Source: Verrucomicrobiales bacterium
GTDB lineage: Bacteria > Verrucomicrobiota > Verrucomicrobiia > Limisphaerales > JAFMIX01
Assembly: GCA_031371425.1 (NCBI GenBank)
Contig: JANMJO010000109.1
Coordinates: 1 to 40,644 of the forward strand
Direction: 5' to 3'
Length of the DNA: 40,644 nucleotides
A program made the position numbers and the translations under genes. Positions 4,247-39,823 of this stretch are shown here, one piece after another. The notes under the pieces were generated by a model. That model made no database searches and had not been told where the DNA came from. It was given only the letters and a program-made list of their open reading frames with translations. Numbering within the stretch: position 1 is the first letter of the stretch; the number at the start of each line of letters is the position of its first letter.

Positions 4247-4251
4247 GCTCT

Positions 4252-13971: not shown

Positions 13972-14032
13972 CCACGGGCTAACGCTACGAGTCTTGGCCG
14001 AAGGATGGGCTGGCACACGGGGTGAAGAGAAA

Positions 14033-15898
14033 ATGCTGAATTTAAAATCATTTCTGGCGGTTGATTTCGGAGCGGGCAGCGTGAAGCTGGCCGAGTTCGA
14101 GGTCAACGAAGCCGGCGGATTGCGCCTCATGCAATACGGCATCGAGTCTCTCGGCTCGGAAGGGGCGCAGGAATCCACACGCGCCGCGGCCATACTCAAG
14201 GCGCTGCAAAAGCTACTTGCCGGCAAGGGCGTCAAATCCAAGGACGTCAATGTCTGCGCGGCGGGCTTCCAGGTATTTTCCAAGTTCGTCAAGCTGCCGC
14301 CTGTCGAGGCGAGCAAGGTCACGCAGATCATCCAATACGAGGCGCAGCAGAACGTGCCGTTCCCGCTGGCCGAGGTGGTGTGGGATTACCAGATCATGGG
14401 CGCGCTGCCGAGCGGCGAGCTGGAGGTGTTGCTGGTGGCCATCAAGGCGGACGTGGTGGAGGGGTTGTTCAAGGTGGCGGAGGCTGCGGGGCTGCGGTTG
14501 CAGGTGGCGGATGTCTCGCCGGCGGCGCTGTGCAACGCGTTCCGATATAATTACGGCGACCTCGAAGACTGCACCATGCTGTTGGACATCGGCGCGAAGA
14601 CGAGCAACCTGCTGTTCTTCGAGAAGGGCAAGGTTTTCTCCCGCAGCATCAACATCGGCGCGAATTCCATCACGCAGGATTTCAGCAACGAAGGCAAACT
14701 GCCGTTCGCCGAGGCCGAGAAGCTCAAGATCACCGAAGGCTTCGTGAGCCTTGGTGGCGCGTATGCCGAGCCGGAGAACCCGCACCAGGCAGCCATCTCC
14801 AAGATCGCGCGGCAGTTCATGACGCGGCTGCACATTCAGGTCAACCAGACCATGCAATTTTATCGGGGACAGCAGGGCGGTTCGGCGCCGGTGCGGCTGT
14901 TCCTCTCCGGCGGGGCTTCGATCATGCCCTACACGGCGCAGTTTTTTGCGGAGAAGCTCAACGTGCCGGTGGAATATTTCAACCCGCTGCGCAACGTGCA
15001 GCTCGACCCCGGCCTGAATCTGGAGGAGCTTGCGCGCGTGGCTCATTCGCTGGGGGAAGTCGTGGGCCTCGGCCTGCGCAACTTGGCGCATTGCCCGGTG
15101 GAATTGAACCTCATGCCGGAGAGCACGCTGCGGTGGCAGAGTTTCAACCAGAAAAAACCTTACCTCATCGCCACCGTGTTCAGCTTGGTGCTGGTGGTGT
15201 TCGCGAGCGGCTGGCTCTTTGGCAAATTGGCCGAGGTGAAGCAGGATGAAATCACGAAGCTGGGGGATGGCAAGGATGGCATCCCGGCACTTCAAGCCAG
15301 GGCGGAGAAGTTCCGCAAGGCGTATCATCAGGATCTGGCCAAGGCCAGGTCGCAGGCCAACCAGGTCGCGGACTGGATTGAAGCGCGGTTTTTCTGGGTG
15401 GACACATGCCGGGCCATGCGCGCCGCCTTCATCGCTGCGGAAGCCAAAACCAAGGTCAAAATCGGCAGGGACACCGGCGTGTGGATTGAAAGCATGATGC
15501 TGGCGAATGGCGAACAGCCAGGAGCCGCCCCCGCCATGCCAGTCGGAGTGCCGATGAACATGGGTTTACGCAGAATACCGCCGGGAATGCCTCCCCAAGC
15601 GGGCATGTTGCCCGAACCAGGAATGGCGCCCGACCCGGGAATGGCGCCACCGGTGGAAGTCGCGCCTGCGCGGGCGTCTGGAGCGGAGACAAACCAGATG
15701 GTCATCACATTGAATTGCCGTGCGGTGAGCCTGAACTCAGAAGAGGCTAACAAAAATCTGGCCTATACGCTTTTGAGCGAGCTGGAGACCAACCCTCTTT
15801 TCAAATCCGCCAAGACGCAGGAAACGAAGGCGGACGATGCGACGGGCACGTTCACATTTACCGTCGCCTTGAAACTCAAGACACCGCTGAAATTCTAG
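14033..15898 (+). CDS. pilM: Type IV pilus PilM actin-like ATPase domain fused to a PilN-like TM/periplasmic part (Amuc_1101-like)
   Basis: LAVDFGAGSVKL, YEAQQNVPFPL.EVVWDYQ, LLDIGAKTSN, LFLSGGAS, then the PilN-like ELNLMP motif, a TM helix and a periplasmic domain with a Pro/Met-rich insert. Confidence 0.9.
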   Translation: MLNLKSFLAVDFGAGSVKLAEFEVNEAGGLRLMQYGIESLGSEGAQESTRAAAILKALQKLLAGKGVKSKDVNVCAAGFQVFSKFVKLPPVEASKVTQIIQYEAQQNVPFPLAEVVWDYQIMGALPSGELEVLLVAIKADVVEGLFKVAEAAGLRLQVADVSPAALCNAFRYNYGDLEDCTMLLDIGAKTSNLLFFEKGKVFSRSINIGANSITQDFSNEGKLPFAEAEKLKITEGFVSLGGAYAEPENPHQAAISKIARQFMTRLHIQVNQTMQFYRGQQGGSAPVRLFLSGGASIMPYTAQFFAEKLNVPVEYFNPLRNVQLDPGLNLEELARVAHSLGEVVGLGLRNLAHCPVELNLMPESTLRWQSFNQKKPYLIATVFSLVLVVFASGWLFGKLAEVKQDEITKLGDGKDGIPALQARAEKFRKAYHQDLAKARSQANQVADWIEARFFWVDTCRAMRAAFIAAEAKTKVKIGRDTGVWIESMMLANGEQPGAAPAMPVGVPMNMGLRRIPPGMPPQAGMLPEPGMAPDPGMAPPVEVAPARASGAETNQMVITLNCRAVSLNSEEANKNLAYTLLSELETNPLFKSAKTQETKADDATGTFTFTVALKLKTPLKF

Positions 15899-15899
15899 C

Positions 15900-16853
15900 A
15901 TGGCCTGGATCAAACGAAATCTCTACTTCCTGATTGGCGGCATTGTCGCGCTGGTTCTGCTCGGCGCGGCGGTCTTCTATCTGGTCACCAAGAACCAGAT
16001 GAATAACGACCTTTCTGAAAAACTCGATGCGGCTTACGGGGAATTGACCCAGCTGAACCAGCAGAACCCTCATCCGGGCAATTCCAAGGTGGACAACATC
16101 AAGATTGCCAAAGAACAATCCGGGCGATTGACCAATTATGTCGGCCGTGCGGACCAGTTTTTTGGACGCATCCCCTCCATACCTGACAGCGGGGAGATCA
16201 CCGATGCCATTTTTGCCGCGCAGTTGAGCAAGACCATCGTAGAACTGCAGACCGCCGCCACAGCCGCCAGCGTCATCCTGCCCCCGCGCTATGATTTCTC
16301 CTTCAGCGCTATCAAATCCAAGATGGCATTCGCCACTGGCAGCCTCCATCCGCTGGCCGAGCAATTGGGCGAGGTGAAGGCCATCTGCGACGTTTTGTAT
16401 CGCGCAAAAATCAACGCCCTCGACAGTATCCGTCGCCGCCGCGTCTCTCCGGATGACAGAGAGCTGGCGGATTACACCGAGCTGCCAGCCACCACCAACG
16501 AACTGGCGGTGTTGACGCCGTATGAAGTCACATTCCGTTGTTTCAGCGGAGAGCTGGCCGAAGTGTTGAGGGGGTTTGCCTATTCTCCGAACGGATTCAT
16601 CGTCAAAACCGTTTCCATTGATCCCGCCTCAGCGTTGGCAGTCACGCCCGAAGTGCAAGCAGCGGTCCCCTCCACGATTTTTGCGGAATCACTAAGGAGG
16701 CGCAGCCCATTTGAGCCGGGAATCATGGCTCCCCCCGTGGTGCAGCCCATTGCTCCCGTGACGCCGACGGTGCGCGGCGGTTTGCAGACCTTCCTGAACG
16801 AGCGCCCGTTGAGAGTGAATCTGGTGATTGAACTGGTGAAATTGAAAAAATAA
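15900..16853 (+). CDS. PilO-like / Amuc_1100-like pilus-associated protein
   Basis: N-terminal TM (WIKRNLYFLIGG), coiled coil, YDFSFS, YEVTFRCFSGELAEVL..FA.S...FIVK; lies directly after pilMN. Confidence 0.72.
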   Translation: MAWIKRNLYFLIGGIVALVLLGAAVFYLVTKNQMNNDLSEKLDAAYGELTQLNQQNPHPGNSKVDNIKIAKEQSGRLTNYVGRADQFFGRIPSIPDSGEITDAIFAAQLSKTIVELQTAATAASVILPPRYDFSFSAIKSKMAFATGSLHPLAEQLGEVKAICDVLYRAKINALDSIRRRRVSPDDRELADYTELPATTNELAVLTPYEVTFRCFSGELAEVLRGFAYSPNGFIVKTVSIDPASALAVTPEVQAAVPSTIFAESLRRRSPFEPGIMAPPVVQPIAPVTPTVRGGLQTFLNERPLRVNLVIELVKLKK

Positions 16854-16858
16854 CCCGC

Positions 16859-17662
16859 ATGGATTTCATCAAGAAACATTACGAAAAACTCCTGCTCGGC
16901 GTGGTGCTGTTGAGCCTCGCCGTCGCAGTGGTGTTCCTGCCCTTCTACATCAACGGTCAGAAACAGGACTTGATTGACAAGCGCACCGGCAAGCTGAATC
17001 CAACCGTCAAAGCCTTGACGAATCTGGACGAGTCCCGCTACACCGACGCATATCAGCGGCTGGAAAAGTCCGTGCCGCTCAACCTTTCCAAGCCGCACCA
17101 CCTCTTCAATCCCGTGCCGTGGCAGAAAAAAGCGGACGCCACCCTGATCAAAGTTCAGGAAGGCAACGAAGTCGGCGCGGAAGCCCTGCAGGCCACCAAG
17201 GTCAACCCGCTTTACACGACCATCCGGTTTGAATCCGTCAGCCCTAGCACAAATTATTTCATCAGCGTGACGCGCGATGCCGATCCGAATCCCAAGCTGC
17301 GTCGAAAAAAAGAGGTGGCTTACAATCTCGGCGAGAAGCGTGATTTCCTGCAGTTGATGGAGGTCAAAGGCGTTCCCGAAAAGCCCGAGCTTCTCATCCT
17401 CCTCTTGAACGACACCAGCGCGACGGTCAGCGTCTCCATAGACCGCCCGTATCAGCGTGTGGATGGCTACAGCGCCGACCTGCGCTATGACCCGGAAAAG
17501 GGCATCTGGCTCGGCCGCCGCGTGAACGACAAAATCAATTTTGCCGGGGATGAGTTCTCCGTCGTTTCCATAAATCTAATTGCTACCAATCAATTTGAAG
17601 TGATATTGTCAGCCAAATCAACCGGCAAGAAAACCACCGTCAGATACAACTCGGAAATGTGA
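16859..17662 (+). CDS. Membrane-anchored protein, Amuc_1099-like position in the cluster
   Basis: KKHYEKLLL N-terminus plus TM helix; located between the PilO-like gene and the secretin. Confidence 0.62.
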   Translation: MDFIKKHYEKLLLGVVLLSLAVAVVFLPFYINGQKQDLIDKRTGKLNPTVKALTNLDESRYTDAYQRLEKSVPLNLSKPHHLFNPVPWQKKADATLIKVQEGNEVGAEALQATKVNPLYTTIRFESVSPSTNYFISVTRDADPNPKLRRKKEVAYNLGEKRDFLQLMEVKGVPEKPELLILLLNDTSATVSVSIDRPYQRVDGYSADLRYDPEKGIWLGRRVNDKINFAGDEFSVVSINLIATNQFEVILSAKSTGKKTTVRYNSEM

Positions 17663-17714
17663 TTTCACCCGGTAATTGAATTTCAGCCAAACGACCCAAG
17701 CCCCACAAAATCTC

Positions 17715-20462
17715 ATGATCAGAGCAGCCAACCCCCAGCTTGTTCTCACCGTACTCCTGGCCATTGCCGCGCCGGCATTCGCACAGGAAGATTCAGCCAA
17801 CGCTCCTGCTGCCGCCGTGCAGGAAGCCGTGCGCCGCCAAGCCTCCACCGTGGAGCTGCGGCAGAAGCTCATCGAGGCCGGCCAAGCCGAACAGCACAGG
17901 GAACTCCTCGCCGCCGCCAAGCTGTATCAGGCCGCCTACAAGTTGAGCCAGGAAGTCGGCAGCGGCATTGATGCCGAAACCAAGTCCGCCATCGCCGGCG
18001 TCTCCCGCATCGGCGCAGCCCTCGCACAACAGGCGCAGGAACTCGGAGACTACAAGGGCGCCGAGGCGCGCATCAAATCCGCGCTCCTCGTGGACCCCAA
18101 AAACCAGACGCTGCTCACCCTCAAACGGAACAACGATGCTTGGTTCGCCGCGCAGGCCGGGAAAATCCCGAGCGCCGAAGTCAAAGAACGTGAGGCTGGC
18201 GTCATCGCCAGCAAGATCAAAAACTCGACGCTCGTGCAGGACGGCAAACTGCTTTACGAACTCGGCAAGTGGGACGAAGCAGAAGCCAAGTTCCGGGTCG
18301 TGCTCGCCGAGGAGGCCGATAATACCGCCGCAATCTATTACATCAAACTCGTCCAAGACGCCCGCTATGGCGCGAGCGACAGCGCCCGCGAACTCACCGC
18401 CCGGAAGCGCATCGTCGAGGTTGAGGACGTCTGGCGTCTGCCGGTCAAGCGCGACCTTCTCCCCACGCCGAACCCCTACTTGCAAGTCCAACAGGTGCAC
18501 ACCGGCGTCGGCCGGGCGGCGATTGTTTCCAAACTCGATCTCATCCGCCTGAGCGAGGTTAAATACGACGGCTTGGAACTCGCCGAAGTCATCCGCAACC
18601 TCAGCGAAGTCACCCGCAAGAGCGACCCCGACAAGGTGGGCATCAACTTCATGATCATCGGCGAGGCCGCCTCTGCCGGCGGAGCGACTGGCGCCGTGGA
18701 CCCCACCACCGGTCTGCCGATTGCCGCCGCGCCCGCTGACGCCGTGGATATTTCCACCGTGCGCGTGAAGATCAACCCGCCCATGAACAACCTCCGCCTC
18801 GCCGATGTGCTTGATGCCATCGTGAAGACTGCGGACCGGCCCATCAAATATTCCATCGAAGACTATTGCATCGTGTTCTCCGCCCGCGCCGCCGAGACCC
18901 CGGCGCTGTTCAACCGGACATTCAAGGTGGACCCCAACACATTCTTCCAAGGTCTCCAAAGCGTTTCGTCAATGAGCTTCGGCAGCAGCAGCAGCGGCGG
19001 GAGCGGTGGCGGCGGCGGTGGTCGTGGCGGCGGTGGCGGTGGCGGCAACCGCGGTGGCGGTGGTGGCAACAGCGGTGGCCAAAATGGCGGCGGCCAAAAT
19101 GGGGGAAGCGAAACCGCAAGTCTTGCGCGCGTATCCGTTGCCGGTGGCGGCAGCGGCGGCCAAAATGGCGGTGGTGGCGGCAGCAGTGGCGGCGGCATCG
19201 CCTTCGTCACGCGGACAAATTCCACGTCGGAGGCCCAGTCCGCAGTCCGCGAGTTCTTCACGGCGGCGGGAGTTGATTTCGGTGCCACCGCCGGTGGTCC
19301 TGGCGGGGCGAGGCAGGGACAGGCTCCGAGTAACGGCAAGGCGCTTTTCTTCAACGATCGCAAAGGCATTCTTTTCGTGCGCGCCACGCTGCAGGACTTG
19401 GACATCATTGAAGCGGCTATTCAGATGCTGAACGTCACGCCGCCGCAGGTGCACATCCAGTCCAAGATTGCGGAGGTCACGCAGGACGACAGGAATTCGC
19501 TGGGCTTCAACTGGTTTCTCGGCAATACGCTCATGGGCAATGGCAATGTCGGCGCGCAGGGCGGCACCGCGCCGTCCTTCGCAGGCGTGCCCACCACGGC
19601 CAACCCTTCCGGCATTTTCCCGAACCCGATCATTCCGCAGTCGCTGACGGATTCGCTCATCAGCGGCGGTTTGAGAAACGGCCTGAACGCCCCGGCGATC
19701 GGCACCCTCTCCGGCATCCTCACAGACCCGCAGTTCCGCGTGGTGGTCAATGCGCTGGAGCAGCGCGATGGCGTGGATGTCGTCAGCGCGCCCTCGGTCA
19801 CCACGTTGAGCGGTCGGCAGACCCACATCGAAGTCACCGACGTGCGTTCCATCGTGACGGGCTTGGATGCCAACCAGACCGGCGGCGGCGGCAACAATAA
19901 CAACGGTAACAACGGCGGTGGCAACAATGGCAACAACGGCAGCGGCGGCTCCGTCGGCTCCGTCATCCAGCCCACGGTTGACCAGCTTCCGTTCGGGCCG
20001 GTGCTGGACGTGATTCCGTATGTTTGCGCGGATGATTATACCATCCAGATGACCGTCATCCCCACGGTCACTGAATTTGTGGGTTATGACACCTCCACTT
20101 TCACCGTTCAGGCTCAGGGCAGTGTCGGCAATGCGCTGATTCAGCAGGTCCCGTTGCCTCACTATCGCATGCGGCAAGTGACAACGTGTGTGGCGGTCTG
20201 GGACGGGCAGACAGTCGTCCTCGGCGGCCTCATCAGCGAAGAAGTGATCAAGACAAAGGATAAAATTCCCGTGATCGGCGATCTGCCTTTGGTTGGGCGG
20301 CTTTTCCGCAGCGAGTCTGCGAGCAAGATAAAGAAGAACCTGCTCATCTTCGTGACGCCCACCATTATTGATCCGGCGGGCAACCGGGTTCATGTGGATG
20401 AGGAGATGCCTTTCGCGCAGACCAGCATCCCGCCGCAGCGTCCGCAGGCGGCCCGTCAATGA
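17715..20462 (+). CDS. pilQ: Outer-membrane secretin (PilQ/GspD family, Amuc_1098-like) with TPR-like N-terminus and Gly-rich loops
   Basis: Signal peptide (APAFA-QE), PPQVHIQSKIAEV, SAPSVTTLSG, VWDGQTVVLGGL, KIPVIGDLPLVGRLFRS, NLLIFVTPTII. Start could alternatively be 17676. Confidence 0.9.
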   Translation: MIRAANPQLVLTVLLAIAAPAFAQEDSANAPAAAVQEAVRRQASTVELRQKLIEAGQAEQHRELLAAAKLYQAAYKLSQEVGSGIDAETKSAIAGVSRIGAALAQQAQELGDYKGAEARIKSALLVDPKNQTLLTLKRNNDAWFAAQAGKIPSAEVKEREAGVIASKIKNSTLVQDGKLLYELGKWDEAEAKFRVVLAEEADNTAAIYYIKLVQDARYGASDSARELTARKRIVEVEDVWRLPVKRDLLPTPNPYLQVQQVHTGVGRAAIVSKLDLIRLSEVKYDGLELAEVIRNLSEVTRKSDPDKVGINFMIIGEAASAGGATGAVDPTTGLPIAAAPADAVDISTVRVKINPPMNNLRLADVLDAIVKTADRPIKYSIEDYCIVFSARAAETPALFNRTFKVDPNTFFQGLQSVSSMSFGSSSSGGSGGGGGGRGGGGGGGNRGGGGGNSGGQNGGGQNGGSETASLARVSVAGGGSGGQNGGGGGSSGGGIAFVTRTNSTSEAQSAVREFFTAAGVDFGATAGGPGGARQGQAPSNGKALFFNDRKGILFVRATLQDLDIIEAAIQMLNVTPPQVHIQSKIAEVTQDDRNSLGFNWFLGNTLMGNGNVGAQGGTAPSFAGVPTTANPSGIFPNPIIPQSLTDSLISGGLRNGLNAPAIGTLSGILTDPQFRVVVNALEQRDGVDVVSAPSVTTLSGRQTHIEVTDVRSIVTGLDANQTGGGGNNNNGNNGGGNNGNNGSGGSVGSVIQPTVDQLPFGPVLDVIPYVCADDYTIQMTVIPTVTEFVGYDTSTFTVQAQGSVGNALIQQVPLPHYRMRQVTTCVAVWDGQTVVLGGLISEEVIKTKDKIPVIGDLPLVGRLFRSESASKIKKNLLIFVTPTIIDPAGNRVHVDEEMPFAQTSIPPQRPQAARQ

Positions 20463-20514
20463 TGATGGCGTTTTGAAAATAATCTTTGTGTCGCATTCAA
20501 TCACCATCCCAAAC

Positions 20515-20543
20515 TTGAAACAGCCGCTGAATTCGGCTATAAT
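20515..20543 (+). promoter_or_regulatory. Near-consensus sigma70 promoter for the surface-protein operon
   Basis: TTGAAA (20515-20520), 17 nt, TATAAT (20538-20543); ATG at 20556. Confidence 0.75.
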
Positions 20544-20555
20544 CTAGCGCTTTTT

Positions 20556-22439: not shown

Positions 22440-22450
22440 CAACCATTTCT

Positions 22451-25225: not shown

Positions 25226-25263
25226 TGCCCATGAACCGCAAAATTTCAAATCCACAAGACGTG

Positions 25264-28110: not shown

Positions 28111-28185
28111 TCTGGGACGAATAGCGAAATTTTTTAAACTGCAACCTGCGCAGCCATGCGGCGGCCGGGCGAACGGAGAAATATT

Positions 28186-34100: not shown

Positions 34101-37100
34101 GGCGAACGATTCCGTGCGCGCCATCAGTCTCCAGCTCGATGGCAGCATCCTCATCGGCGGCCTGTTCACCAGCGTGAACGGCACCCCGCGCAGCCACATC
34201 GCCCGCCTCAACAGCGCCGACGGCTCGCTCGACAACACCTTCAACCCCGGCGCCGGGCTGGATGACGCGGTGCTCGCGATTTCATTGCAGGCGGATGGAC
34301 GCATCGTGCTGGGCGGGACATTCACCCATTGCAACGGCGTCAGTCGCAATCGCCTCACGCGGCTGAACCCCGATGGCTCGGTGGACCCGACCATCAACTT
34401 CGGCACCGGAGCTGACGCGTATGTGGGCGCCGTCGTGGTGCAGAAGGGAACGATCGTGGGTTATCCTCCCACCGTGCCGGACGAAAAGATCATCATCGGC
34501 GGCGGGTTCACCCATTACAACGGCGCGGCGCACGATCATCTGGCGCGGATTTACGGCGGGTCCATCGGCGGCTCGGGCGCGTTCGAGTTCTCCATGCCCG
34601 ACTATCAGGCGGATGAGAACGCCACGAACGTATTCATCACCGTCATCCGCACGGGCGGCACGAGCGGCACGAATGCGGACGGCTCTGGAAATATCCTCGT
34701 GCACTTCACCACCGCCAACGGCACGGCGCAGGCGGGAACGAATTATACTGCGGTGGACACCTACCTTGTTTTCCCCGCCGGCGAAGTGCAGCAGACACTG
34801 GCCGTGGCGGTCATGGACGACTTCATCATCACGCCGAACCTGACGGTCAATCTGGACATTGTCCCGCAGTTGCCCGCCACCCCCGGCTACCAACCGACCG
34901 CAGTGCTGACCATCGTCAACACCGACAGCGCGATTCAATTCACTTCGGCCACGTACCAAGTGCCCAAGAACGTCATCAACAGCCTCGCCCAGATTGGCGT
35001 CGTCCGCGCCGGCAGTTCGGTCGGCACCGCCACGGTGGTCTTCAACACCACCACCAACGGCACCGCGTTGGTGGGCACGGATTACCAGCCGCGCACCAAC
35101 ATACTCATCACCTTCGCCCCCGGCGTCACACAGCAGATCGTGACCGTGCCGGTCGTCAACAACAACCTCCCCGAAGGCAACCAGACTGTGACCATGACAT
35201 TGAGCAATGTCTTCGGCTCGCTCCTCTCTGCGCCGTCGAACGCCGTGCTGACCATCATTGATACCGTCAATGCGCCCGGCCAGTTCCTTTTCTCCGCCAC
35301 CAATTACAACGTCAGCGAAGGCGGCGGCGTGGGCTTCACCAGCACGGCCATCACCGTGCTCCGCACGAACGGCGCGACAGGGATTGTCACCGTCCACTAC
35401 GCCACCACCAACGGCACGGCAGCGGCAGGGATTAAATACATCGCCACCTCCGGCGTGCTGACTTTCGGCGATGGCGAAATAAGCAAGACCTTCACCGTCC
35501 CCGTGTTCAACACCGCCACCATCGAATCCAATCAGAACTTCTTCGTGTCCTTGTTCACCACCTCGGGTGGCGCGGGCCTCACCGCCCCGACGAATGCCAT
35601 GGTCACGATTCTCAACACGAACGCCGGCATCATTTTCGCCGCAGCCACAAACACGTTCAACGAAAACGCCGGCGTGGCTCTCATCAATGTCGTCCGCTAC
35701 AACAACACCCACGGCATCGCCACGGTGAACTACGGCACCACCAACGGCACGGCGCAGGCGGGCGTGAACTTTTTCGCCACCAGCGGCACACTCACCTTCA
35801 ACGATGGCGCGTCTCTGGCGTCCATCACCGTCCCGCTGATTTACAACACGAACGTCACTGGCAACCTGACCTTCAATGTGGGTCTCTCCAGCCCCAGCGC
35901 GGGCACGCAGGTCGGAAACCCCGGCGTCACCAGCATCGTGCTGCGCGATGTGGATGCGGGCTTGAGCTTCACCACCTCCAGCGTCTCCGTCCTCAAGAAC
36001 GCCGGCAGCCTCGTCATCCCCGTCATCCGCTCCGCCACAAACTCCGGGCTGGTCACTGTGGATTACACCACCCAGGACGGCACGGCGCAGGCCGGAGTTG
36101 ATTACACGTTCACGCACGGCACGCTGGTGTTCAGCAATGGCGTCGCCACGAACACCTTCACCGTGCCCATCAGCAACAACGGCCTCGTGAACGGCGACCA
36201 CGCGTTCACCGTGAAGTTGTCCAACCCCTCCGGCACTGGCCGCATCGTTTCGCCGAGCACCGAGACGGTGACGATCATTGACAGCAACCCCGGCCTCCGT
36301 TTCTCCAGCCCCACCTACAGCGTGTTCAAGACCGGCGGTCAGGCCATCATCAACGTCCAACGCATTGACTTTACCAACACCGTGACTTCGGTGAATTACC
36401 TCGTCACCAACGGCACCGCCATCGCGGGCACGCACTTCATCTCCAGCAGCGGCACGCTCGTCTTCACCAACGGCGTCACCAACCAATCCTTCACCGTGGC
36501 AATCATCGGCACCACCACCGTCCAGCCCGACTTGGTGGTGCTGCTGGAATTGAGCAGCCCCGTCAACGGCATCCTCATTCCGCCGAGTGCGGCCACGCTG
36601 ACCATTCATGACGACACCGGCAGCTACGTCATCCCCGCCGGCGCCGCTATGGTTTCCGAGTCGGGTGCGGGCGCGCCCAACGACATCATTGATTCCAACG
36701 AGACCGTCACCGTGCAGTTCGCCTTACGCGTCGCGGGCGGCACGAACGTAGCCAACCTGATCGCCACGCTGCTCCCCGGCGGCGGCGGCGTGACGCCGGT
36801 CAACCCGGTCACGGCCACCTACGGCGCGCTGGCGTATCGCGGTCACTCGGTCTCGCGGCCGTTCACCTTCATGGCGCAAGGCACGAACACGCAGCAGATC
36901 ACCGCCACGTTCCGGCTTCAGAACGGAGTGAACGACATCGGCAACGCGATCTTCGGCTTCACAATCGGCAGCTCGGCGAGATCGTTCTCGAACACCGCCG
37001 CCATCACGATCTTCGACAACGCTGCGGCCTCGCCGTATCCGTCCATCATCAACGTCAGCGGCGTGGGCGGCACGCTGATCAAGGCCACGGTGACGCTCAC

Positions 37101-37329
37101 CAACTTGAGCCACACCTCGCCGGCGGATATCCGGGCGCTGGTGGTTTCACCGGCGGCGTTGAACACGTTGTTCATGGCGCACGCCGGCGGCAATAACGCG
37201 GTGACGAACATCACGCTGACGTTCGACGATGCGGCGGCCAGTTCGCTATCGCAGATCAACCGTCTGACCACGAGCACCAACAAGCCGACGCAGTGGTTTA
37301 TGACACCCAACCCGCCGCCTTTCCCCTGA
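28186..37329 (+). CDS. Giant (~3050 aa) secreted surface protein/adhesin: TolB-like propeller, PPC-like domain, multiple Calx-beta domains, two delta-60 (DUF5122) repeat clusters, partial P-domain
   Basis: GTG 28186 follows GGAG (ATG 28198 is an alternative); PxxSPDG repeats; SIWYQWTAP..FDTVLAVYT; ALQxDGKILIGGxF..IARLNxDGSxDxxF repeats (~30520-31870 and ~33410-34560); FSxxxYxVxE..VxRxxG..GTA..Y..GTLTF modules. Confidence 0.9.
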   Translation: MKEKMRFIGLRLQRLIRGTSALMGSLLVLAGMTATAFGQAETKILFAAKPTIADTTYEFYLIKTNGTGLFRMTMDGTDKICPAVSPDNTTLAYLRNDLPAPNIEIIPVSGGAPYTVPITNYAYALQWGDNQTLYYLSPDGIANGYRLWKTDTNGNGNRVVFTNVLDDLFAASYAFHLDRTTGKAYIPNLNPAIESRIYYGTVTSNRLTGFIPFTTTLGDEFDPGLSPDGNRIAFGADVLFDGEQALWVANTAGGAAAAIANSKYAGNPAWIDNSTLVFTKATASTFANSYYEGNIVRVKQNGTGMSSLTSGTVVSGRCAFPCIIVTTNGAPPPGGDNDYFTNAIVIEGLSGTVAGTNTAATLEAGEPDFINADDFSGVDKSIWYQWTAPASGVVSFDTFGSGFDTVLAVYTNTPDIANLVAANNDYLSLIVPQSWLTFTVVEGTTYFISVNGNSLPAPGYSDSGNVILNWLETVPNIESGTFKFTAANYVVSDNESFSPFDASLFPSIVGARVTVTRTNGFSGRVLVPYTVTNYSTFAFSNNVSGVLVFDDHQMSADIIVDIFSLLTTNTSIGTNPPITLAAPGTIDVTLDTPTLDLLESTDLLPPVLTVVTNTQVTVVSAVYPPSEVDRAASLPYFNIERATFRTPEGNIGATILVYPSRAPSGGSTYTLNYAVDHHVSLTDLLGPNNTFTLQAGSDYATPTTDFTDVTSGTLTWESGDGFPKEINLPIAQDSNPEFNEDFEIELYNPLDISTAPPTVLALGQVNTATMTILFDDQPAGAVDRTWNVEGTSSSVPPNLTYPGTQGGVSDSANGNGGTVYATAVQPDGKSIVAGSFIAFDSNPYNRIVRLLNNGYQDATFLAAPNSGANDFIAALALQPDGKILIGGAFTSFNGANRYHIARLNANGSVDNAFNPGLGVNGMVWALARQANGKIVIAGEFTSVNGTNCNSVARLNANGSLDTSFNPGVGPNGIVKAVAVDGAGRVSIGGYFTRVAGLVRGGVARLNADGTLDASFDPGIGNYNPDTGNTDPVNALALQSDGKLLAGGSFAYVQLNPINGIARFNTDGTVDTSFSTGGSVNGTHNPVIGVADSVNAITLQTDGTILIGGDFISINQTRRVGIARLFGDGSVDTTFMDTAYNQFAGVINHYHNPDAVNLLDYPQGNHRNSINAIAVEPGTNSNVIIGGNFLVVGGGSFAHSGFLARDGDSGIVDNGRMDIHPRSNVARLIGSGTPGPGNIEFSYDAYSVGKSDGSLYVSLVRTNGSLGIIGASLSAPPGPDGQPGIANIPADFTTGNSEPTWNTRWSTPGWMKSDCYFGPNYNLTLGDSTPGVGSGVIFGISNNGNITGNLNANLALAAPKPFDFFLGGELIPLGVAMGAKQASALTIIDPNFKAGTFGFSAAAYTVNQSSNAVTITVTRTNGNHGAVQISYATFNGTATSPANYTAVGGTLTFNQGDISKSFTVPIIPSTVNQPDKTVNLRLFGITGGGQTGLTNAVLTIVNNVFGAGHITFAFPTNTASETAGTAPIVLNRLGAGSGTLDVTMISSDITATNGVNYVRSTNVVHWNNLDVSPKTVNVTVLHDGNFTPSLTVKLRLTNGLVNNLANANVLGLSTLTNSTLVIANADFPGTVQFTAAAYSVKKYGGFALIPVIRTGGSAGTVTVDYTTVNGTASSPANYTATNGVLTFAAGEVSKYIKVPIIDDGSGAGLQALGVTLSNALPASALGSISNTVLNIIDSATVNEPPGSEDVTYSPLSGFNGNVFTLALQVNNQLLVGGEFTMANGVPRQHLARLNENGTLDATFGLPSSSMVANDSVRTLAIQTDGRILVGGHFTTFNNIARSRIARLNYDGSLDSLFDPGSGADNPVFALGETFVNGARKVIIGGAFARLNGVTFNSIGRLNDDGTPDTTFNPAGLGANSTVYALAVQTDGKIIIGGDFTAVNGTALNHIARLNADGSVDNTFTNAVANAAAGANDSVRAISLQLDGSILIGGLFTSVNGTPRSHIARLNSADGSLDNTFNPGAGLDDAVLAISLQADGRIVLGGTFTHCNGVSRNRLTRLNPDGSVDPTINFGTGADAYVGAVVVQKGTIVGYPPTVPDEKIIIGGGFTHYNGAAHDHLARIYGGSIGGSGAFEFSMPDYQADENATNVFITVIRTGGTSGTNADGSGNILVHFTTANGTAQAGTNYTAVDTYLVFPAGEVQQTLAVAVMDDFIITPNLTVNLDIVPQLPATPGYQPTAVLTIVNTDSAIQFTSATYQVPKNVINSLAQIGVVRAGSSVGTATVVFNTTTNGTALVGTDYQPRTNILITFAPGVTQQIVTVPVVNNNLPEGNQTVTMTLSNVFGSLLSAPSNAVLTIIDTVNAPGQFLFSATNYNVSEGGGVGFTSTAITVLRTNGATGIVTVHYATTNGTAAAGIKYIATSGVLTFGDGEISKTFTVPVFNTATIESNQNFFVSLFTTSGGAGLTAPTNAMVTILNTNAGIIFAAATNTFNENAGVALINVVRYNNTHGIATVNYGTTNGTAQAGVNFFATSGTLTFNDGASLASITVPLIYNTNVTGNLTFNVGLSSPSAGTQVGNPGVTSIVLRDVDAGLSFTTSSVSVLKNAGSLVIPVIRSATNSGLVTVDYTTQDGTAQAGVDYTFTHGTLVFSNGVATNTFTVPISNNGLVNGDHAFTVKLSNPSGTGRIVSPSTETVTIIDSNPGLRFSSPTYSVFKTGGQAIINVQRIDFTNTVTSVNYLVTNGTAIAGTHFISSSGTLVFTNGVTNQSFTVAIIGTTTVQPDLVVLLELSSPVNGILIPPSAATLTIHDDTGSYVIPAGAAMVSESGAGAPNDIIDSNETVTVQFALRVAGGTNVANLIATLLPGGGGVTPVNPVTATYGALAYRGHSVSRPFTFMAQGTNTQQITATFRLQNGVNDIGNAIFGFTIGSSARSFSNTAAITIFDNAAASPYPSIINVSGVGGTLIKATVTLTNLSHTSPADIRALVVSPAALNTLFMAHAGGNNAVTNITLTFDDAAASSLSQINRLTTSTNKPTQWFMTPNPPPFP

Positions 37330-37357
37330 TGGCTGGCGAATTGAACGAGAGATTTTT

Positions 37358-39823
37358 ATGAACAAGACGTTTTTGAAAAAGGGATTCAGTCTGCTGGCGG
37401 TCGCAGGCTTGGTCTGGCCGGCTGCCGCCGTGAGTGTGGCGCGCAGGCAGCTCCCCGGCCACGTGCCAGCGGCGGTGGCGAACTTGTCCGTGTCCAGCCA
37501 TCTGGCGGCTACGAACCAGATCAACCTGGCCATCGGCCTGCCGTTGCGGAACACCACGGCGCTGACCAATCTGATGGGGGAGATTTACGATTCCGCCAGT
37601 CCGAAATACCGCCAGTATCTGACGCCGGAAGAATTCACCGCGCAGTTCGGGCCGACCGAGCAGGAGTATCAGGCGGTCAAAGATTTCGCGGCGGCCAACA
37701 GCTTCACCGTCACCGCCACGCACGCCAACCGCATGCTCGTCGAGGTCCGTGGTTCGGCGGCGGATGTGGAGCGCGCCTTCAACGTTCAGCTGAACAAGTA
37801 TCCCCATCCGACGGAAAGCCGGGAGTTTTTCGCGCCCGCCACCGCGCCGTCCGTGCCGGCGTCATTGGCGGTTTTGGATGTGACGGGCTTGAGCGATTTT
37901 CCGCGCCCCACGCCCAGGATCAAACTGGGTGGTTACACTTCCGCTTCGCCCAAGACCGGCTCCGGTCCCGGCGGCTTGCTGATGGGTTATGATTATCGCA
38001 ATGCGTATGTGCCGGGGACGACCTTGACCGGCGTGGGGCAGAAGGTGGCGTTTGTGCAGTTCGACGGATATTTCGCGAGCGACATCGCCCTGTATGCGCA
38101 GCAGTCCGGCTTGCCAGCGCCGGTGCTGACGAACATTTTGATAAACGGGTTCAGCGGCATTCCCACCCTGACCGGCGGCGAAGGTGAAGTGACACTGGAT
38201 CTGGAGATGACGATGTCCATGGCGCCGAATCTGGACATGATGCTGGTCTATGAAGGTGATCCATTTAACTTCAGCCCGAATGCCGTCCTGAACCGGATCG
38301 CTGCGGACAATGCAGCCCGGCAGGTGAGTTGTTCGTGGGGTTGGACCGGCGGGCCGACGGCGACGACCGAGCAGATTTTCCTGCAGATGATTCTTCAGGG
38401 GCAGGCGTTCTTGAACGCTTCCGGCGACTGGGATTCTTCATATCCCGGCTGGATGGAAGACCCGAATTTCGTCGGCTATCCATCGGGCAGCGCCAATATC
38501 GTGCAGGTCGGCGGCACCACATTGACCACCGGCGCGGGCGCGGCGTATGTTTCGGAAACGGTGTGGACTTCCACTGATCCGTATTTTTATCGCGGCGTGC
38601 AGATTGGCGAATTGGGAAGTTCGGGCGGCATCAGCAGCGTCGTCCCCCTTCCGATCTGGCAGCAGGGCATCGCCAACTCCAGCAACAACGCCTCGGCCAC
38701 GTTCCGGAATGTCCCCGATGTCTCCATGCCCGCCGACGGGATCAACATCGTTCTCTACGGCGCCAATCAAAACACCGGCGGCACCAGCGCCTCGGCGCCA
38801 TTGTGGGCGGGCTATCTGGCGCTCGTGAACCAGCAGGCGGTTGCGCAGGGAAAACCCACCGTCGGTTTCCCAAACCCCTCCCTCTACTCCATCGCCAAGA
38901 CGGCCAGCTACAACAGTTGTTTCTATGACATCACCAACGGCAACAACGCTTGGGTGAGCTACCCGACCAATTATTTCGCCGTCGGCGGCTACGACCTTTG
39001 CACCGGCCTCGGCTCTCCAAAAGGCGTGACCCTCATTAACGCTTTGGTCAATGGCACCAACACCGCGCTCATCATTTCCGCACCGTTGCCGCTCTGGGGC
39101 ACCAACCTCGCCGCCCTGAACGGCAGCAACCCCAACGGCGCGTGGTTGCTCTTCGTGCAGGACGACGCGCTCTTTGACTCCGGCTCCATCGCCAAAGGCT
39201 GGCAGCTCAACCTCACCACCGCCAACCCCGTCGGTGCCGCCGCCGACTTGGAACTCACCATGACCAGCCCGGCCACCAACATTCTGGGCAACGGAAATCT
39301 CACCTACGTCATCGCCGTCACCAACTACGGCCCGTCCGCTTGCGCCAGCAATGCCGTCATCACCATCACACTCCCCGCTGCCGCCACATTCCTTTCCGCC
39401 ATTCCCACCAAAGGATTCGTCAGCACCCTCGCTGGCATAAGTCTGACTTGGAACGCCGGACCCTTGGCCGTCAGCGCCGCCGCCAAGCTCACGCTCACCT
39501 TGCGCGCTACCGGCATCGGCAGCTACGCCAACACCGCCCACGTGGATTCCACCACCACCACCGACCCGAATCCTGACGACGACACCGCCACCGTGACCAT
39601 CAACGCCATCACGACGCCGCAATTGTCAGGCTTCCTCATCCCCGGCGGCGACGGACGCTTCCGGCTCTCCATGACAAATGAGATTTCCGGGTCGGTCATC
39701 ATCCAGGCATCCACCAACCTGTTCAACTGGGTAAATATTTCCACCAACACCCTGCCGTTCATCTACACCAACGGCTACACCACGAACTACTCCGCCCGCT
39801 TCTACCGCGCAGTCCTGCCGTAG
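37358..39823 (+). CDS. Secreted sedolisin (peptidase S53) with pro-domain, partial P-domain, DUF11 and C-terminal domain
   Basis: Pro-kumamolisin YLTPEEFTAQFGPT; catalytic EVTLD (Glu/Asp), ASGD oxyanion Asp, GGTSASAP (Ser), GYDLCTGLGSP; DUF11 ADLELT..LTYVIAVTNYGPS; C-terminal IQASTNLFNW...RFYRA. Confidence 0.93.
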   Translation: MNKTFLKKGFSLLAVAGLVWPAAAVSVARRQLPGHVPAAVANLSVSSHLAATNQINLAIGLPLRNTTALTNLMGEIYDSASPKYRQYLTPEEFTAQFGPTEQEYQAVKDFAAANSFTVTATHANRMLVEVRGSAADVERAFNVQLNKYPHPTESREFFAPATAPSVPASLAVLDVTGLSDFPRPTPRIKLGGYTSASPKTGSGPGGLLMGYDYRNAYVPGTTLTGVGQKVAFVQFDGYFASDIALYAQQSGLPAPVLTNILINGFSGIPTLTGGEGEVTLDLEMTMSMAPNLDMMLVYEGDPFNFSPNAVLNRIAADNAARQVSCSWGWTGGPTATTEQIFLQMILQGQAFLNASGDWDSSYPGWMEDPNFVGYPSGSANIVQVGGTTLTTGAGAAYVSETVWTSTDPYFYRGVQIGELGSSGGISSVVPLPIWQQGIANSSNNASATFRNVPDVSMPADGINIVLYGANQNTGGTSASAPLWAGYLALVNQQAVAQGKPTVGFPNPSLYSIAKTASYNSCFYDITNGNNAWVSYPTNYFAVGGYDLCTGLGSPKGVTLINALVNGTNTALIISAPLPLWGTNLAALNGSNPNGAWLLFVQDDALFDSGSIAKGWQLNLTTANPVGAAADLELTMTSPATNILGNGNLTYVIAVTNYGPSACASNAVITITLPAAATFLSAIPTKGFVSTLAGISLTWNAGPLAVSAAAKLTLTLRATGIGSYANTAHVDSTTTTDPNPDDDTATVTINAITTPQLSGFLIPGGDGRFRLSMTNEISGSVIIQASTNLFNWVNISTNTLPFIYTNGYTTNYSARFYRAVLP

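What the first reader, a model, noticed from the sequence alone, without database searches (positions are those of the whole stretch)
14033..39823. Secretin-PilMNO module followed by cargo sharing a C-terminal domain: candidate verrucomicrobial export system
Seen: pilMN, pilO-like, Amuc_1099-like and secretin genes are followed directly by five signal-peptide proteins. Three unrelated ones end in a similar ~60-80 aa module: LSW...YQVQSSTNMSSW...GYYRV (22269-22439), LQW...LYFKTNLSLPGW...HYYQV (~27856-28110) and FRLSM...IIQASTNLFNW...RFYRA (39617-39823). None has a TM tail, PEP-CTERM or beta-barrel. No pilin, PilB/GspE ATPase or PilC gene is in the window. Known: T9SS cargo use an Ig-like C-terminal domain as export signal, and the Akkermansia Amuc_1098-1101 cluster is usually called pilus-related. 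Inference: this module may be a sorting or anchoring signal, and the secretin complex may export these proteins in a T2SS-like way to build a surface layer.
Basis: partly seen in the sequence, partly recalled or inferred. Interest (0 to 1): 0.78.

Follow-up and report, generated by a model that had tools for sequence, protein, structure and literature searches.

The report
Secretin-linked exoprotein cassette with shared tail
A pilus-type outer-membrane pore gene cluster of a sediment Verrucomicrobia bacterium is followed by a conserved set of exported-protein genes, several ending in a small uncatalogued tail domain that also closes dozens of other exported proteins; the linkage is real, but it is not shown that the pore exports proteins by reading this tail.

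Summary
The window carries a PilM-like / Amuc_1100-like / unknown / secretin module (13994-20462). Five signal-peptide proteins follow, then coaE. P0001 and P0004 end in a ~75-aa tail (…G..Y.VQ.STNL..W…RFYRV-stop); a profile built without them finds both (E 4e-8, 1.5e-7). P0003's tail is weak alone (E 0.17), but its orthologues carry clear tails.

The tail is genome-wide: 36 ORFs here, 33 of 35 assessable at the very C-terminus. Relatives have 15-146 each. The protein library holds 74,518 clusters. Pfam and NCBIfam have no model.

Synteny is conserved. In 14 loci of 13 genomes of the same order, the secretin is followed by P0001-, P0002- and P0003-type genes, a variable giant or protease slot, then coaE. 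Outside the order the secretin is followed by coaE alone. Two other PilM-secretin cluster types are also followed directly by tail proteins.

Most tail genes lie far from secretins. An Akkermansia-type genus has the cluster and no tails. Some orthologues lack or swap the tail, and tandem arrays exist. My reading: a secretin-linked surface-protein cassette, with the tail as a retention or docking module rather than a proven export signal.

Earlier notes of this scan describe both the tail and the trio on other genomes.

The parts
13994..15898 (+). PilM-like protein with a long C-terminal extension (Amuc_1101 type), 634 aa
   Evidence: PF11104 PilM_2 E 2e-36. NF045709 Amuc_1101_fam E 1e-142, 477 bits, below the 650 cut-off.
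15900..16853 (+).
   Evidence: NF038287 E 1.1e-13, 51 bits, cut-off 180. No Pfam family. No PDB sequence relative.
16859..17662 (+). 267-aa protein of unknown family in the position of Amuc_1099
   Evidence: No Pfam or NCBIfam hit at E<=0.01, although NF042425 Amuc_1099_fam exists and scores the g22 protein at 329 bits. Only chance-level PDB hits, E >= 0.42.
17676..20462 (+). Secretin, 928 aa; C-terminal half Amuc_1098-like, N-terminal half alignable only within the order
   Evidence: PF00263 E 4e-32. NF042912 340 bits, cut-off 750. Full-length orthologues at 46-79% identity in relatives. Outside the order only residues from about 470-550 onward align.
20515..20543 (+). Sigma-70-like promoter match (TTGAAA-17-TATAAT, 11 of 12) in the secretin-P0001 gap
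   Evidence: The total number of promoter-like sites is not above the shuffles (5 against 4.1 +/- 2.1), so this is a lead only.
20556..22439 (+). P0001: signal peptide, repeat region of about 400 aa that reads as a beta-propeller (by eye), fn3, linker, tail; 627 aa
   Evidence: fn3 E 1.5e-4 at residues 419-498. Orthologue found in 14 of 14 loci of relatives.
22194..22436 (+). FYRV-type tail of P0001
   Evidence: iE 4.8e-13 with the A1 profile. E 4.4e-8 with a profile built without the window's tails.
22451..25225 (+). P0002: signal peptide, conserved N-terminal domain of unknown family, Thr/Asn-rich middle, He_PIG Ig end; no tail; 924 aa
   Evidence: PF05345 E 5e-10 at residues 848-923. Orthologue in 12 of 12 loci long enough to show it. 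Atlas: Verrucomicrobiota-only clusters without a name.
25222..28110 (+). P0003: signal peptide, about 850 aa of unknown family, diverged tail; 962 aa
   Evidence: No Pfam or NCBIfam family. Orthologue in 11 of 12 loci. Atlas: unnamed Verrucomicrobiota clusters, scores <= 0.85.
27835..28086 (+). Diverged tail of P0003 (ends HYYQV plus 9 residues)
   Evidence: iE 4.9e-9 with A1, which contains it, but E 0.17 when left out. Orthologues end in clear tails.
28156..37329 (+). P0005: 3057-aa giant with delta-60/DUF5122 propeller repeats and 9 Calx-beta domains; no tail; variable slot
   Evidence: Calx-beta E 1e-149, DUF5122 E 9e-142. Homologues in the same slot in G014 and G020 at 39% identity; other giants in the slot elsewhere.
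37358..39823 (+). P0004: pro-kumamolisin/sedolisin-type protease, DUF11, tail; 821 aa; variable slot
   Evidence: PF09286 E 5.5e-28, PF01345 E 4.7e-20, Peptidase_S8 E 1e-4. 54% identical homologue in the same slot in G004.
39596..39820 (+). FYRV-type tail of P0004
   Evidence: iE 6.2e-14. E 1.5e-7 in the leave-out test. AF2 model of these 80 aa: mean pLDDT 73.9, six strands.
39845..40423 (+). coaE (dephospho-CoA kinase): the conserved right-hand neighbour of the secretin elsewhere in the phylum, here pushed about 19 kb away
   Evidence: PF01121 E 1e-49. coaE is within about 3 kb behind the secretin in 5 of 7 loci outside the order, and at the end of the cassette in 5 loci of relatives.

Best explanation
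The four genes at 13994-20462 are this order's version of the verrucomicrobial Amuc_1098-1101 (MUL2-type) type-IV-pilus-like envelope machine. That machine has a cytoplasmic PilM-like actin-fold protein with a membrane extension, two small envelope proteins and an outer-membrane secretin.

In this order a cassette was inserted between the secretin gene and its old neighbour coaE. The cassette holds P0001 (propeller-fn3-tail), P0002, P0003 (tail) and a variable slot with giant adhesin-like or protease proteins. It has been kept there since.

Inferred steps:
- The cassette proteins cross the inner membrane by Sec.
- They reach the cell surface, most simply through a secretin channel.
- There they work with the pilus-like machine in binding or processing polymers.

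The shared ~75-aa tail is a small fn3-like beta-sandwich of a very large uncatalogued Verrucomicrobiota family. It closes exported proteins all over the genome. I think it is a surface-retention or docking module. This would parallel MYXO-CTERM or GlyGly-CTERM cargo, where the type II system carries the protein across the outer membrane and the C-terminal tag only decides that it stays on the cell. I do not think it is the signal the secretin recognises.

Shown here: the gene content, the family, the C-terminal position, the signal peptides and the synteny. Inferred: export route, surface location and the role of the tail.
For: Module identity. In genus g22 the same gene order passes all four NCBIfam Amuc_ cut-offs.

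Literature: the Amuc_1098-1102 proteins are abundant in the envelope fraction, and Amuc_1100 sits on the cell outside (PMC5332112, passages). MUL2 is proposed as a type-IV-like pilus for attachment and glycan use, syntenic with a 'secretion system channel protein' and dephospho-CoA kinase (PMC13174399, abstract and section 2 part 1 plus the Fig. 2 legend passage).

Cassette:
- P0001 orthologue in 14 of 14 loci from 13 genomes, spanning 13 coded families of the order.
- P0002 orthologue in 12 of 12 loci long enough to show it.
- P0003 orthologue in 11 of 12 loci.
- A variable giant or protease gene follows, then coaE in the 5 loci that reach that far.
- Outside the order, none of 7 loci has a P0001-P0003 homologue at E<=1e-4, and coaE follows the secretin within about 3 kb in 5 of the 7.
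- The gaps are tight and there is a 4-nt overlap. No terminator-like site lies in a gap.

Tail:
- 36 ORFs in the genome. Of the 35 whose end is on the contig, 33 stop within 7 aa of the stop codon.
- 26 of 29 N-terminally complete tail ORFs have a signal-peptide-like start, against 94 of 400 control ORFs.
- The partner domains are diverse enzymes and adhesin-like repeats.
- No Pfam or NCBIfam model matches at E<=1.
- 20 of 21 genomes of the order sample (G000 included) have it; the 19 relatives with a match carry 15-146 matches each. 137 of 301 phylum genomes have it. The library holds 74,518 clusters at E<=1e-3.

Recurrent adjacency:
- The second secretin cluster of this genome (contig C19) is followed 41 nt later by a 1901-aa NHL protein with a tail.
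- In relatives, its orthologous clusters have a tail protein as the first or second downstream gene in 9 of 15 loci. Two more are cut by contig ends and 4 have none.
- In family f41, of another class, 4 of 4 loci examined have PilM..secretin followed by a 1966-2803-aa tail protein.

Tag-like behaviour: in G014 both the P0001 and P0003 orthologues, and in G015 the P0003 orthologue, carry a different ~105-aa end module in place of the tail. That module also sits at the very C-terminus in this genome's own ORFs.

Precedent for 'tag retains, T2SS transports': PMC11980579 (passages).
Against: - There is no experimental or expression evidence for export, surface location or co-transcription.
- An 11-of-12 promoter-like site lies between the secretin gene and P0001, so the cassette may be transcribed on its own.
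- The window holds no pilin, ATPase or platform gene. A pilin-like Amuc_1102 homologue was not found with one query, and that query's identity was not verified.
- The adjacency statistics are partly post hoc. f41 was examined because matches on shared contigs caught my eye. In the complete genome G223 only 1 of about 9 secretin loci is directly followed by a tail gene.
- Kin share synteny, so the number of independent events is two or three, not dozens.
- Retention rather than export is argued by analogy only.
- Tandem arrays of 2-39 copies dominate the best library hits. That fits an ordinary structural repeat as well.
Confidence: 0.5

Rival explanations
1. One reading: the tail is a folded C-terminal export signal, a counterpart of the T9SS CTD. 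It is recognised by secretin-based (T2SS- or T4P-like) machines, which carry tail-bearing proteins across the outer membrane.
For: - The position is strictly C-terminal, on Sec-signal proteins with unrelated domains.
- Two or three separate PilM..secretin cluster types are followed directly by tail proteins.
- In this genome 2 of 3 secretin genes have a tail gene directly behind them. The third lies on a 3.7-kb contig that I did not inspect.
- Every tail-rich genome checked holds secretins: 5 of 5 f41 genomes with 7-14 Secretin matches.
- T2SSE (8 matches) and T2SSF (8 matches in 4 ORFs) lie elsewhere in the genome and could power such a system.
Against: - Different secretins would all have to read the same tail.
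- Genus g22 keeps the bona fide cluster with 0 of 22 genomes showing tails. Family f37 has the secretin type in 5 of 5 genomes and tails in 1 of 5. Families f41 (tails 9 of 9, this secretin type 0 of 9) and f20 (21 of 21 against 6 of 21) show the reverse at E<=1e-30; the tool calls these counts a floor.
- P0001 orthologues in G019 and G015 end before any tail. G014 and G015 swap it for another module.
- P0002 and P0005 sit in the same cassette without a tail.
- Tandem arrays exist. From my own knowledge, these are not seen for T9SS CTDs.
- Known T2SS cargo has no linear or modular signal (textbook knowledge).
Confidence: 0.15
2. The tail is only a common structural fn3-like end or spacer domain with no sorting, anchoring or export role. 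Its presence beside secretins reflects the general abundance of large exported proteins in these genomes and inherited gene order.
For: - The best structural matches are ordinary fn3 domains, and weak ones (Foldseek E >= 0.02, TM about 0.5).
- All 150 best library hits carry 2-39 copies.
- Tail genes cluster without a secretin on the contig (5 on C39).
- Within G223 alone the adjacency is not above chance. With 52 tails in 3.9 Mb, about 0.1-0.2 of 9 loci are expected directly adjacent and 1 is seen (my arithmetic).
Against: - 33 of 35 assessable copies in this genome end 0-7 aa before the stop codon, with a fixed ...[FY][YF]R[VIL]-x(2-5) end.
- Some ORFs are little more than a signal peptide plus the tail (C226:13330-13791, 154 aa).
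- Orthologues swap it for another strictly C-terminal module.
- A plain spacer has no reason to be last.
Confidence: 0.2
3. P0001-P0003 are not cargo but parts of the machine itself. For example, they could be a PilY1-like propeller adhesin and partners mounted on or beside the pilus-like fibre.
For: - The trio, and not the slot proteins, is conserved in order and content across the order.
- P0001 and the protein behind the C19 secretin are both propeller-type proteins. NHL/SGL families are found for C19; P0001's repeats are read by eye.
- PilY1 being a propeller adhesin of type IV pili is my own knowledge, not a call.
Against: - No sequence or profile link to PilY1 or to pilins was found.
- Genus g22 and other orders run the module without the trio.
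- No pilin gene is in the window.
Confidence: 0.15

Closest known systems
MUL2 / Amuc_1098-1102 pilus-like locus of Akkermansia muciniphila and Akkermansiaceae (PMC5332112; PMC13174399)
   Same: The gene order is PilM-like, small protein, small protein, secretin, and further on coaE. The best NCBIfam matches are the Amuc_1101, Amuc_1100 and Amuc_1098 families. The same order passes all cut-offs in genus g22.
   Different: All scores here are below the curated cut-offs, and there is no Amuc_1099 match. No Amuc_1102-type pilin gene is adjacent; an epimerase gene lies upstream. About 19 kb of exported-protein genes are inserted between the secretin and coaE. That insertion is not in the parts of those papers I read, nor in the 7 loci outside the order.
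T9SS C-terminal domain (Por_Secre_tail, TIGR04183 / PF18962) of Bacteroidota
   Same: Both are small beta-sandwiches at the extreme C-terminus of many unrelated Sec-dependent exoproteins, tens to more than a hundred per genome.
   Different: There is no sequence match: no hit on the tails at E<=1 and none in the genome at E<=0.01. Tandem arrays occur. The machinery next door is a secretin, not a T9SS. Cleavage or attachment is unknown.
MYXO-CTERM / GlyGly-CTERM cargo of type II secretion (PMC11980579, passages)
   Same: A C-terminal tag shared by dozens of exoproteins is combined with secretin-dependent passage of the outer membrane. In those systems the tag governs retention on the cell, not transport. 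I propose the same division of labour here.
   Different: Those tags are a short motif plus a TM helix plus a basic tail, cut by an intramembrane protease. This one is a folded ~75-aa domain without a TM helix. No processing enzyme is known.
Fibronectin type III domain (PF00041)
   Same: The predicted fold is a six-strand beta-sandwich. The best, weak structural matches are fn3 domains (TENCON, cytokine receptors).
   Different: No PF00041 hit on the tails at E<=1. The tail is shorter than fn3. It has its own conserved ...STNL..W...RFYRV signature and a terminal position.
PEP-CTERM / exosortase
   Same: An exosortase and an EpsI-like gene lie 2.7 kb upstream in the same window, so a C-terminal sorting system is nearby.
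   Different: The tails have no PEP motif, TM helix or basic end. Only 3 PEP-CTERM matches exist in the genome, all on ORFs of 167-212 aa.

Membership tests
Amuc_1098-1101 (MUL2-type) pilus-like cluster | PilM-like Amuc_1101-family protein | tested here: inconclusive
   NF045709 is the best hit (E 1e-142, 477 bits) but falls below the 650-bit cut-off. PilM_2 and TIGR01175 are above their cut-offs.
Amuc_1098-1101 (MUL2-type) pilus-like cluster | Amuc_1100-family protein | tested here: inconclusive
   NF038287 E 1.1e-13, 51 bits against a cut-off of 180, aligned end to end.
Amuc_1098-1101 (MUL2-type) pilus-like cluster | Amuc_1099-family protein | tested here: not met
   No NCBIfam hit at E<=0.01 for 16859-17662, while the model scores 329 bits on the g22 protein. 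Only the position agrees.
Amuc_1098-1101 (MUL2-type) pilus-like cluster | Amuc_1098-family secretin | tested here: inconclusive
   NF042912 is the best hit, 340 bits against a cut-off of 750. The Secretin domain is above its cut-off.
Amuc_1098-1101 (MUL2-type) pilus-like cluster | Conserved neighbourhood with dephospho-CoA kinase; Amuc_1102 pilin-like gene upstream | tested here: inconclusive
   coaE is present but 19 kb downstream, behind the cassette. No pilin-like gene is upstream. The g22 upstream ORF used as a query found nothing in this genome, and that ORF's identity was not verified.
T9SS CTD | Match to TIGR04183 / PF18962 | tested here: not met
   No hit on the three tails at E<=1. 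No TIGR04183 match in the genome at E<=0.01.
T9SS CTD | T9SS machinery (SprA, PorV, PorU and others) in the genome | not tested
   No search was made for these components.
Type II secretion system | GspD-type secretin with GspE ATPase, GspF platform and pseudopilins in one system | tested here: inconclusive
   A secretin is present; TIGR02517 scores 161 bits, below its 351 cut-off. T2SSE (8 matches) and T2SSF (4 ORFs) exist only on other contigs. Pseudopilins were not searched.
PEP-CTERM / exosortase substrates | PEP motif, TM helix and basic C-terminus | tested here: not met
   The C-terminal sequences show none. The TIGR02595 matches in the genome are 3 other small ORFs.
fn3 (PF00041) | Profile match and seven-strand fn3 fold | tested here: not met
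   No Pfam hit at E<=1 on the tails. The model has six strands. Foldseek finds fn3 domains only at E >= 0.02.
FYRV-type C-terminal tail family (uncatalogued; defined in this scan) | Significant match to a profile of other tails; end within a few residues of the stop codon; Sec signal at the N-terminus | tested here: met
   P0001 and P0004 meet all three criteria. P0003 meets position and signal peptide, but its score is not significant when left out (E 0.17); it is supported by its orthologues.

The most novel reading that the evidence does not exclude
The FYRV-type tail is the recognition or docking module of a secretin-dependent surface-display pathway of Verrucomicrobiota. Pilus-type PilM..secretin machines would export folded, tail-bearing proteins and hold them at the pore or pilus. 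This would be a secretin-based counterpart of the T9SS CTD system, with interchangeable tail types, given the second ~105-aa end module that replaces it in some orthologues.
Probability: 0.15. Interest if true: 0.85.

Novelty: new variant of a known kind. Interest (0 to 1): 0.55.

Why it matters
Verrucomicrobiota are major degraders of polysaccharides in soil, sediment and gut. How they place their many large exoproteins on the cell is unknown.

The tail family is very large (74,518 clusters at 50% identity) and is in neither Pfam nor NCBIfam. The Akkermansia MUL2/Amuc_1100 machine attracts medical interest, yet its mechanism is open.

A conserved cassette of exported proteins welded to that machine in a whole order, several of them carrying the tail, gives a concrete and testable handle. 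It bears both on what the secretin does and on what the tail is for.

Tried and rejected
- Pairwise BLAST of the three tails was too weak to decide. Profiles were used instead.
- Phylum-wide co-occurrence of tails with this secretin type is not discriminating. The search used a stricter first look, so its counts are a floor. Outside the order only the C-terminal half aligns, so orthologues and paralogues mix.
- 'Tails in genomes without any secretin' could not be shown. 5 of 5 f41 genomes hold 7-14 Secretin matches.
- The P0003 homologue search in the tail-less genome G012 found nothing. G012's P0001 orthologue is cut by the contig end. So G012 cannot show what replaces the tail.
- PDB sequence searches of the 317-aa and 267-aa proteins gave nothing usable.
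- Foldseek of the tail model against PDB gave 0 matches at E<=0.001. I did not run pdb_via_wide.
- The Atlas gave only unnamed Verrucomicrobiota clusters for P0002 and P0003. For P0002 there was a sub-threshold metzincin lead (0.78-0.81), and I saw no HExxH in that stretch.
- Sequencing runs: no RNA holder was listed. Eight DNA holders in 2 studies of freshwater or other sediment were listed.
- The literature word searches returned no paper on such a tail. Searches on the Amuc cluster returned only Akkermansia and Akkermansiaceae work.

Full report
WHAT IS THERE

The window (contig C102 of a 2.93-Mb, 335-contig genome, 94% complete) holds housekeeping genes first: ftsK, HIT, dus and NIF3. A polysaccharide/exosortase block follows: a WecG-type transferase, an exosortase at 9613-10581, an EpsI-like gene, a sugar transferase and an epimerase.

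After that, everything on the + strand is as follows:
- 13994-15898: a 634-aa PilM-like protein (PilM_2 E 2e-36; best NCBIfam Amuc_1101_fam, 477 bits, cut-off 650).
- 15900-16853: a 317-aa protein whose only hit is Amuc_1100_fam (E 1e-13, 51 bits, cut-off 180).
- 16859-17662: a 267-aa protein with no hit.
- 17676-20462: a 928-aa secretin (PF00263 E 4e-32; Amuc_1098_fam 340 bits, cut-off 750).
- Five ORFs with signal-peptide-like starts: P0001 (20556-22439), P0002 (22451-25225), P0003 (25222-28110), P0005 (28156-37329) and P0004 (37358-39823).
- coaE (39845-40423).

The gaps between these genes are 93, 11, -4, 45, 28 and 21 nt. No terminator-like site falls in a gap. An 11-of-12 sigma-70-like match sits in the 93-nt gap, though promoter-like sites as a whole are not above the shuffles.

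'pilO-like' is better called weakly Amuc_1100-like. 'Amuc_1099-like' rests on position alone, because an NCBIfam Amuc_1099 model exists and does not match.

THE TAILS

Pairwise BLAST is weak. I iterated a profile over the 25,433 six-frame ORFs of the genome. I then aligned 29 tails (A1). The signature is …G..Y.[VL]Q.S[TS][ND]L..W….(T)D……[RQ]R[FY]YR[VIL] followed by 2-5 residues and the stop codon.

With the A1 profile, 36 ORFs match at iE<1e-3, one copy each:
- 33 of the 35 whose end is on the contig stop within 7 residues of the stop codon.
- Two copies are internal. One is on C159, 112 aa before the end. The other is a weak 26.5-bit match on C39.

A profile built from the 26 non-window tails finds P0001 (E 4.4e-8) and P0004 (E 1.5e-7). 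It does not find P0003 (E 0.17). P0003 ends HYYQV plus 9 residues, and its orthologues in relatives carry clear tails. I take it as a diverged member. P0002 ends in a He_PIG Ig domain, and P0005 has no tail.

The partner domains of the 27 non-window tail ORFs scanned are unrelated to each other. They include peptidase M64, endo/exonuclease-phosphatase, purple acid phosphatase, alpha-amylase-like, DUF2334, YHYH, NHL, LTD, Ig, PATR and FG-GAP; 7 of the 27 have no family.

By a crude hydrophobicity rule, 26 of 29 N-terminally complete tail ORFs have a signal-peptide-like start, against 94 of 400 control ORFs.

No Pfam or NCBIfam model matches the tails at E<=1. The genome has no T9SS-CTD match and only 3 PEP-CTERM matches.

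AlphaFold2 on A1 gives a six-strand sandwich with mean pLDDT 73.9. Foldseek against PDB finds nothing at E<=0.001. The best rows are fn3 domains at TM about 0.5.

HOW WIDE

- In the order sample, 20 of 21 genomes (G000 included) have tails. The 19 relatives with a match carry 15-146 matches each. G012, at 94% complete, has none.
- In an even sample of the phylum, 137 of 301 genomes match. That search scored at most 18 candidates per genome.
- In the 1.84-billion-protein library, 74,518 cluster representatives match at E<=1e-3 and 6,038 at E<=1e-10.
- All 150 best-scoring proteins carry 2-39 matched stretches. That list is ranked by summed score, which favours arrays.
- In the three I read (P0008, P0022, P0089), each repeat keeps the FYRV end and the array runs to the C-terminus.

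So the domain is modular and can be repeated. That differs from T9SS CTDs as I know them.

(a) Synteny. I fetched up to 20 kb behind the secretin orthologue in 14 loci of 13 genomes of the order, which span 13 coded families.
- A P0001 orthologue is in 14 of 14 loci.
- A P0002 orthologue is in 12 of 12 loci long enough to show it.
- A P0003 orthologue is in 11 of 12 loci.
- One or two variable large genes follow, P0005-like giants or P0004-like protease or other. coaE follows in the 5 loci that reach it.
- Nine loci have an extra 304-375-aa ORF between the secretin and P0001, which this window lacks.

Outside the order I examined 7 loci behind the best secretin hits. None has a P0001-P0003 homologue at E<=1e-4. 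coaE follows within about 3 kb in 5 of them (G098, G320, G028, G118, G068), not in G143 or G263. G098, of genus g22, has PilM-like, Amuc_1100, Amuc_1099 and Amuc_1098 proteins all above NCBIfam cut-offs.

This matches the published MUL2 synteny with a 'secretion system channel protein' and dephospho-CoA kinase (PMC13174399, Fig. 2 legend passage).

The cassette is therefore an order-specific insertion between two old neighbours, and it has been kept since.

(b) Tails on the cassette.
- P0001 orthologues: the profile finds a tail in 8 loci, and one more (G005) shows it by eye. G014 has another end module. G019 and G015 stop after the repeat region. G012 and G003 are cut by contig ends.
- P0003 orthologues: 5 by profile and 4 more by eye. 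G014 and G015 carry the other module.
- P0002 orthologues never have a tail.
- The other module is about 105 aa and ends …F.G.LLQ.Q..G.G.F……G.V.L.P. It also sits at the very C-terminus of at least two ORFs of this genome (C140:17829-19538, iE 2e-21; a C232 ORF, iE 7.6e-12). It has no Pfam or NCBIfam model.
- Two strictly terminal modules replacing each other on orthologues, both changed together in one genome, behave like tags.

(c) Recurrence.
- The genome has three secretin genes.
- The one on C19 closes a separate cluster: a DUF7305 protein, …, PilM, …, T2SSM_b-like, …, secretin. It is followed 41 nt later by a 1901-aa NHL protein with a tail.
- Behind its orthologues in relatives, a tail protein is the first gene in 8 loci and the second in 1, of 15. 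Two more loci are cut by contig ends with the homologue present. Four have none.
- In family f41, of another class, 4 of 4 loci examined have PilM-…-secretin followed within about 80 nt by a 1966-2803-aa tail protein. Only its tail resembles the C19 protein.

(d) Limits.
- I looked at f41 because matches on shared contigs caught my eye.
- In the complete f41 genome G223 there are 52 tail matches and about 9 secretin loci. One locus is directly followed by a tail gene. One more has a weak tail match (E 1e-4) about 3 kb downstream.
- In this genome about 33 of 36 tail ORFs lie outside this window. Five sit on C39, where no secretin was found.
- At family level, tails and this secretin type do not track each other. 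The pairs below give tails, then this secretin type at E<=1e-30, a count the tool calls a floor:
  - f22: 1 of 23 against 14 of 23 (genus g22: 0 of 22 against 13 of 22).
  - f37: 1 of 5 against 5 of 5.
  - f41: 9 of 9 against 0 of 9.
  - f20: 21 of 21 against 6 of 21.
- Every tail-rich genome I checked has some secretin. So 'tails without a secretin' could not be found, and secretins are too common for that test to discriminate.

READING

The descriptive part is solid. This is a MUL2-type pilus-like secretin module with an order-specific, conserved cassette of exported proteins. Three of the five proteins here end in a phylum-wide, uncatalogued C-terminal domain.

What is known of the module comes from Akkermansia:
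- Its proteins are abundant in the envelope fraction, and Amuc_1100 is on the cell outside (PMC5332112, passages).
- The locus is proposed to build a type-IV-like pilus for attachment and glycan use (PMC13174399, abstract and section 2 part 1). The primary genetic study is its reference 4, which I did not read.

I think the cassette proteins are surface partners or cargo of this machine.

For the tail I favour retention or docking over an export signal. The grounds are the discordant distributions, the tail-less cassette members and the arrays. There is also a precedent: the type II system moves MYXO-CTERM and GlyGly-CTERM proteins with or without the tag, and the tag only keeps them on the cell (PMC11980579, passages).

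The recurrent 'secretin, then tail protein' arrangement is the best evidence for it so far.

KNOWN OR NEW

I found no paper describing the tail (word searches) or the cassette (searches returned only Akkermansia and Akkermansiaceae work). These are limited full-text word searches of an open-access library.

Earlier notes of this scan, read after my own tests, describe the same tail on other Verrucomicrobia genomes. They also describe the same secretin-linked trio in the same order; one note names it Limisphaerales, which I could not check. This window is therefore a further instance.

- The link between the two themes.
- The two further secretin cluster types followed by tail proteins.
- The insertion between the secretin and coaE.
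- The replacement of the tail by a second end module.
- The negative co-occurrence data.

No expression data could be had.

Noticed in passing
window 8813-13894: A polysaccharide/exosortase block lies directly upstream of the pilus-like module: a WecG-type transferase, an exosortase (best NCBIfam XrtA, below cut-off), an EpsI-like protein, a sugar transferase and an epimerase. The genome has only 3 PEP-CTERM matches, all on ORFs of 167-212 aa.
   Followed up: partly
L042 (G014) and L048 (G015); own genome C140:17829-19538 and a C232 ORF: A second, uncatalogued ~105-aa module sits strictly at the C-terminus (ends …F.G.LLQ.Q..G.G.F……G.V.L.P). It replaces the FYRV tail on P0001 and P0003 orthologues in two relatives, and closes at least two ORFs of this genome.
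   Followed up: partly
G000 contig C19:1-13855 (L039): A second PilM..T2SSM_b-like..secretin cluster is preceded by a DUF7305/adhesive-domain protein and a Sel1 protein. It is followed by a 1901-aa NHL-repeat protein with the tail.
   Followed up: yes
window 20515-20543: A near-consensus sigma-70-type promoter match (TTGAAA-17-TATAAT) lies in the gap between the secretin gene and P0001. The cassette may have its own promoter.
   Followed up: no
L044-L047, L049-L053 (relatives), first ~1 kb behind the secretin: Nine of 14 loci have an extra 304-375-aa ORF between the secretin gene and the P0001 orthologue. This window, G004, G003, G011, G014 and G015 lack it. Its family was not looked up.
   Followed up: no
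G000 C226:13330-13791 and C314 (110-aa ORF): Very short ORFs consist of little more than a signal peptide and the tail. This suggests the tail can be a functional unit by itself.
   Followed up: no
window 22523-23530 (P0002 residues 25-360): The conserved N-terminal domain of P0002 has only unnamed Verrucomicrobiota relatives in the Atlas. There is a sub-threshold resemblance to metzincin peptidases (0.78-0.81). I saw no HExxH motif in it.
   Followed up: partly
window 3550-6690: Overlapping long ORFs on both strands (4148-5464 on the minus strand, 5040-6686 on the plus strand) have no Pfam or NCBIfam family. The real gene content of this stretch was not worked out.
   Followed up: no
G000 C159:324-1505: This is the one clear internal copy of the tail. 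It sits behind a YHYH domain, with 112 further residues after it whose nature was not examined.
   Followed up: no
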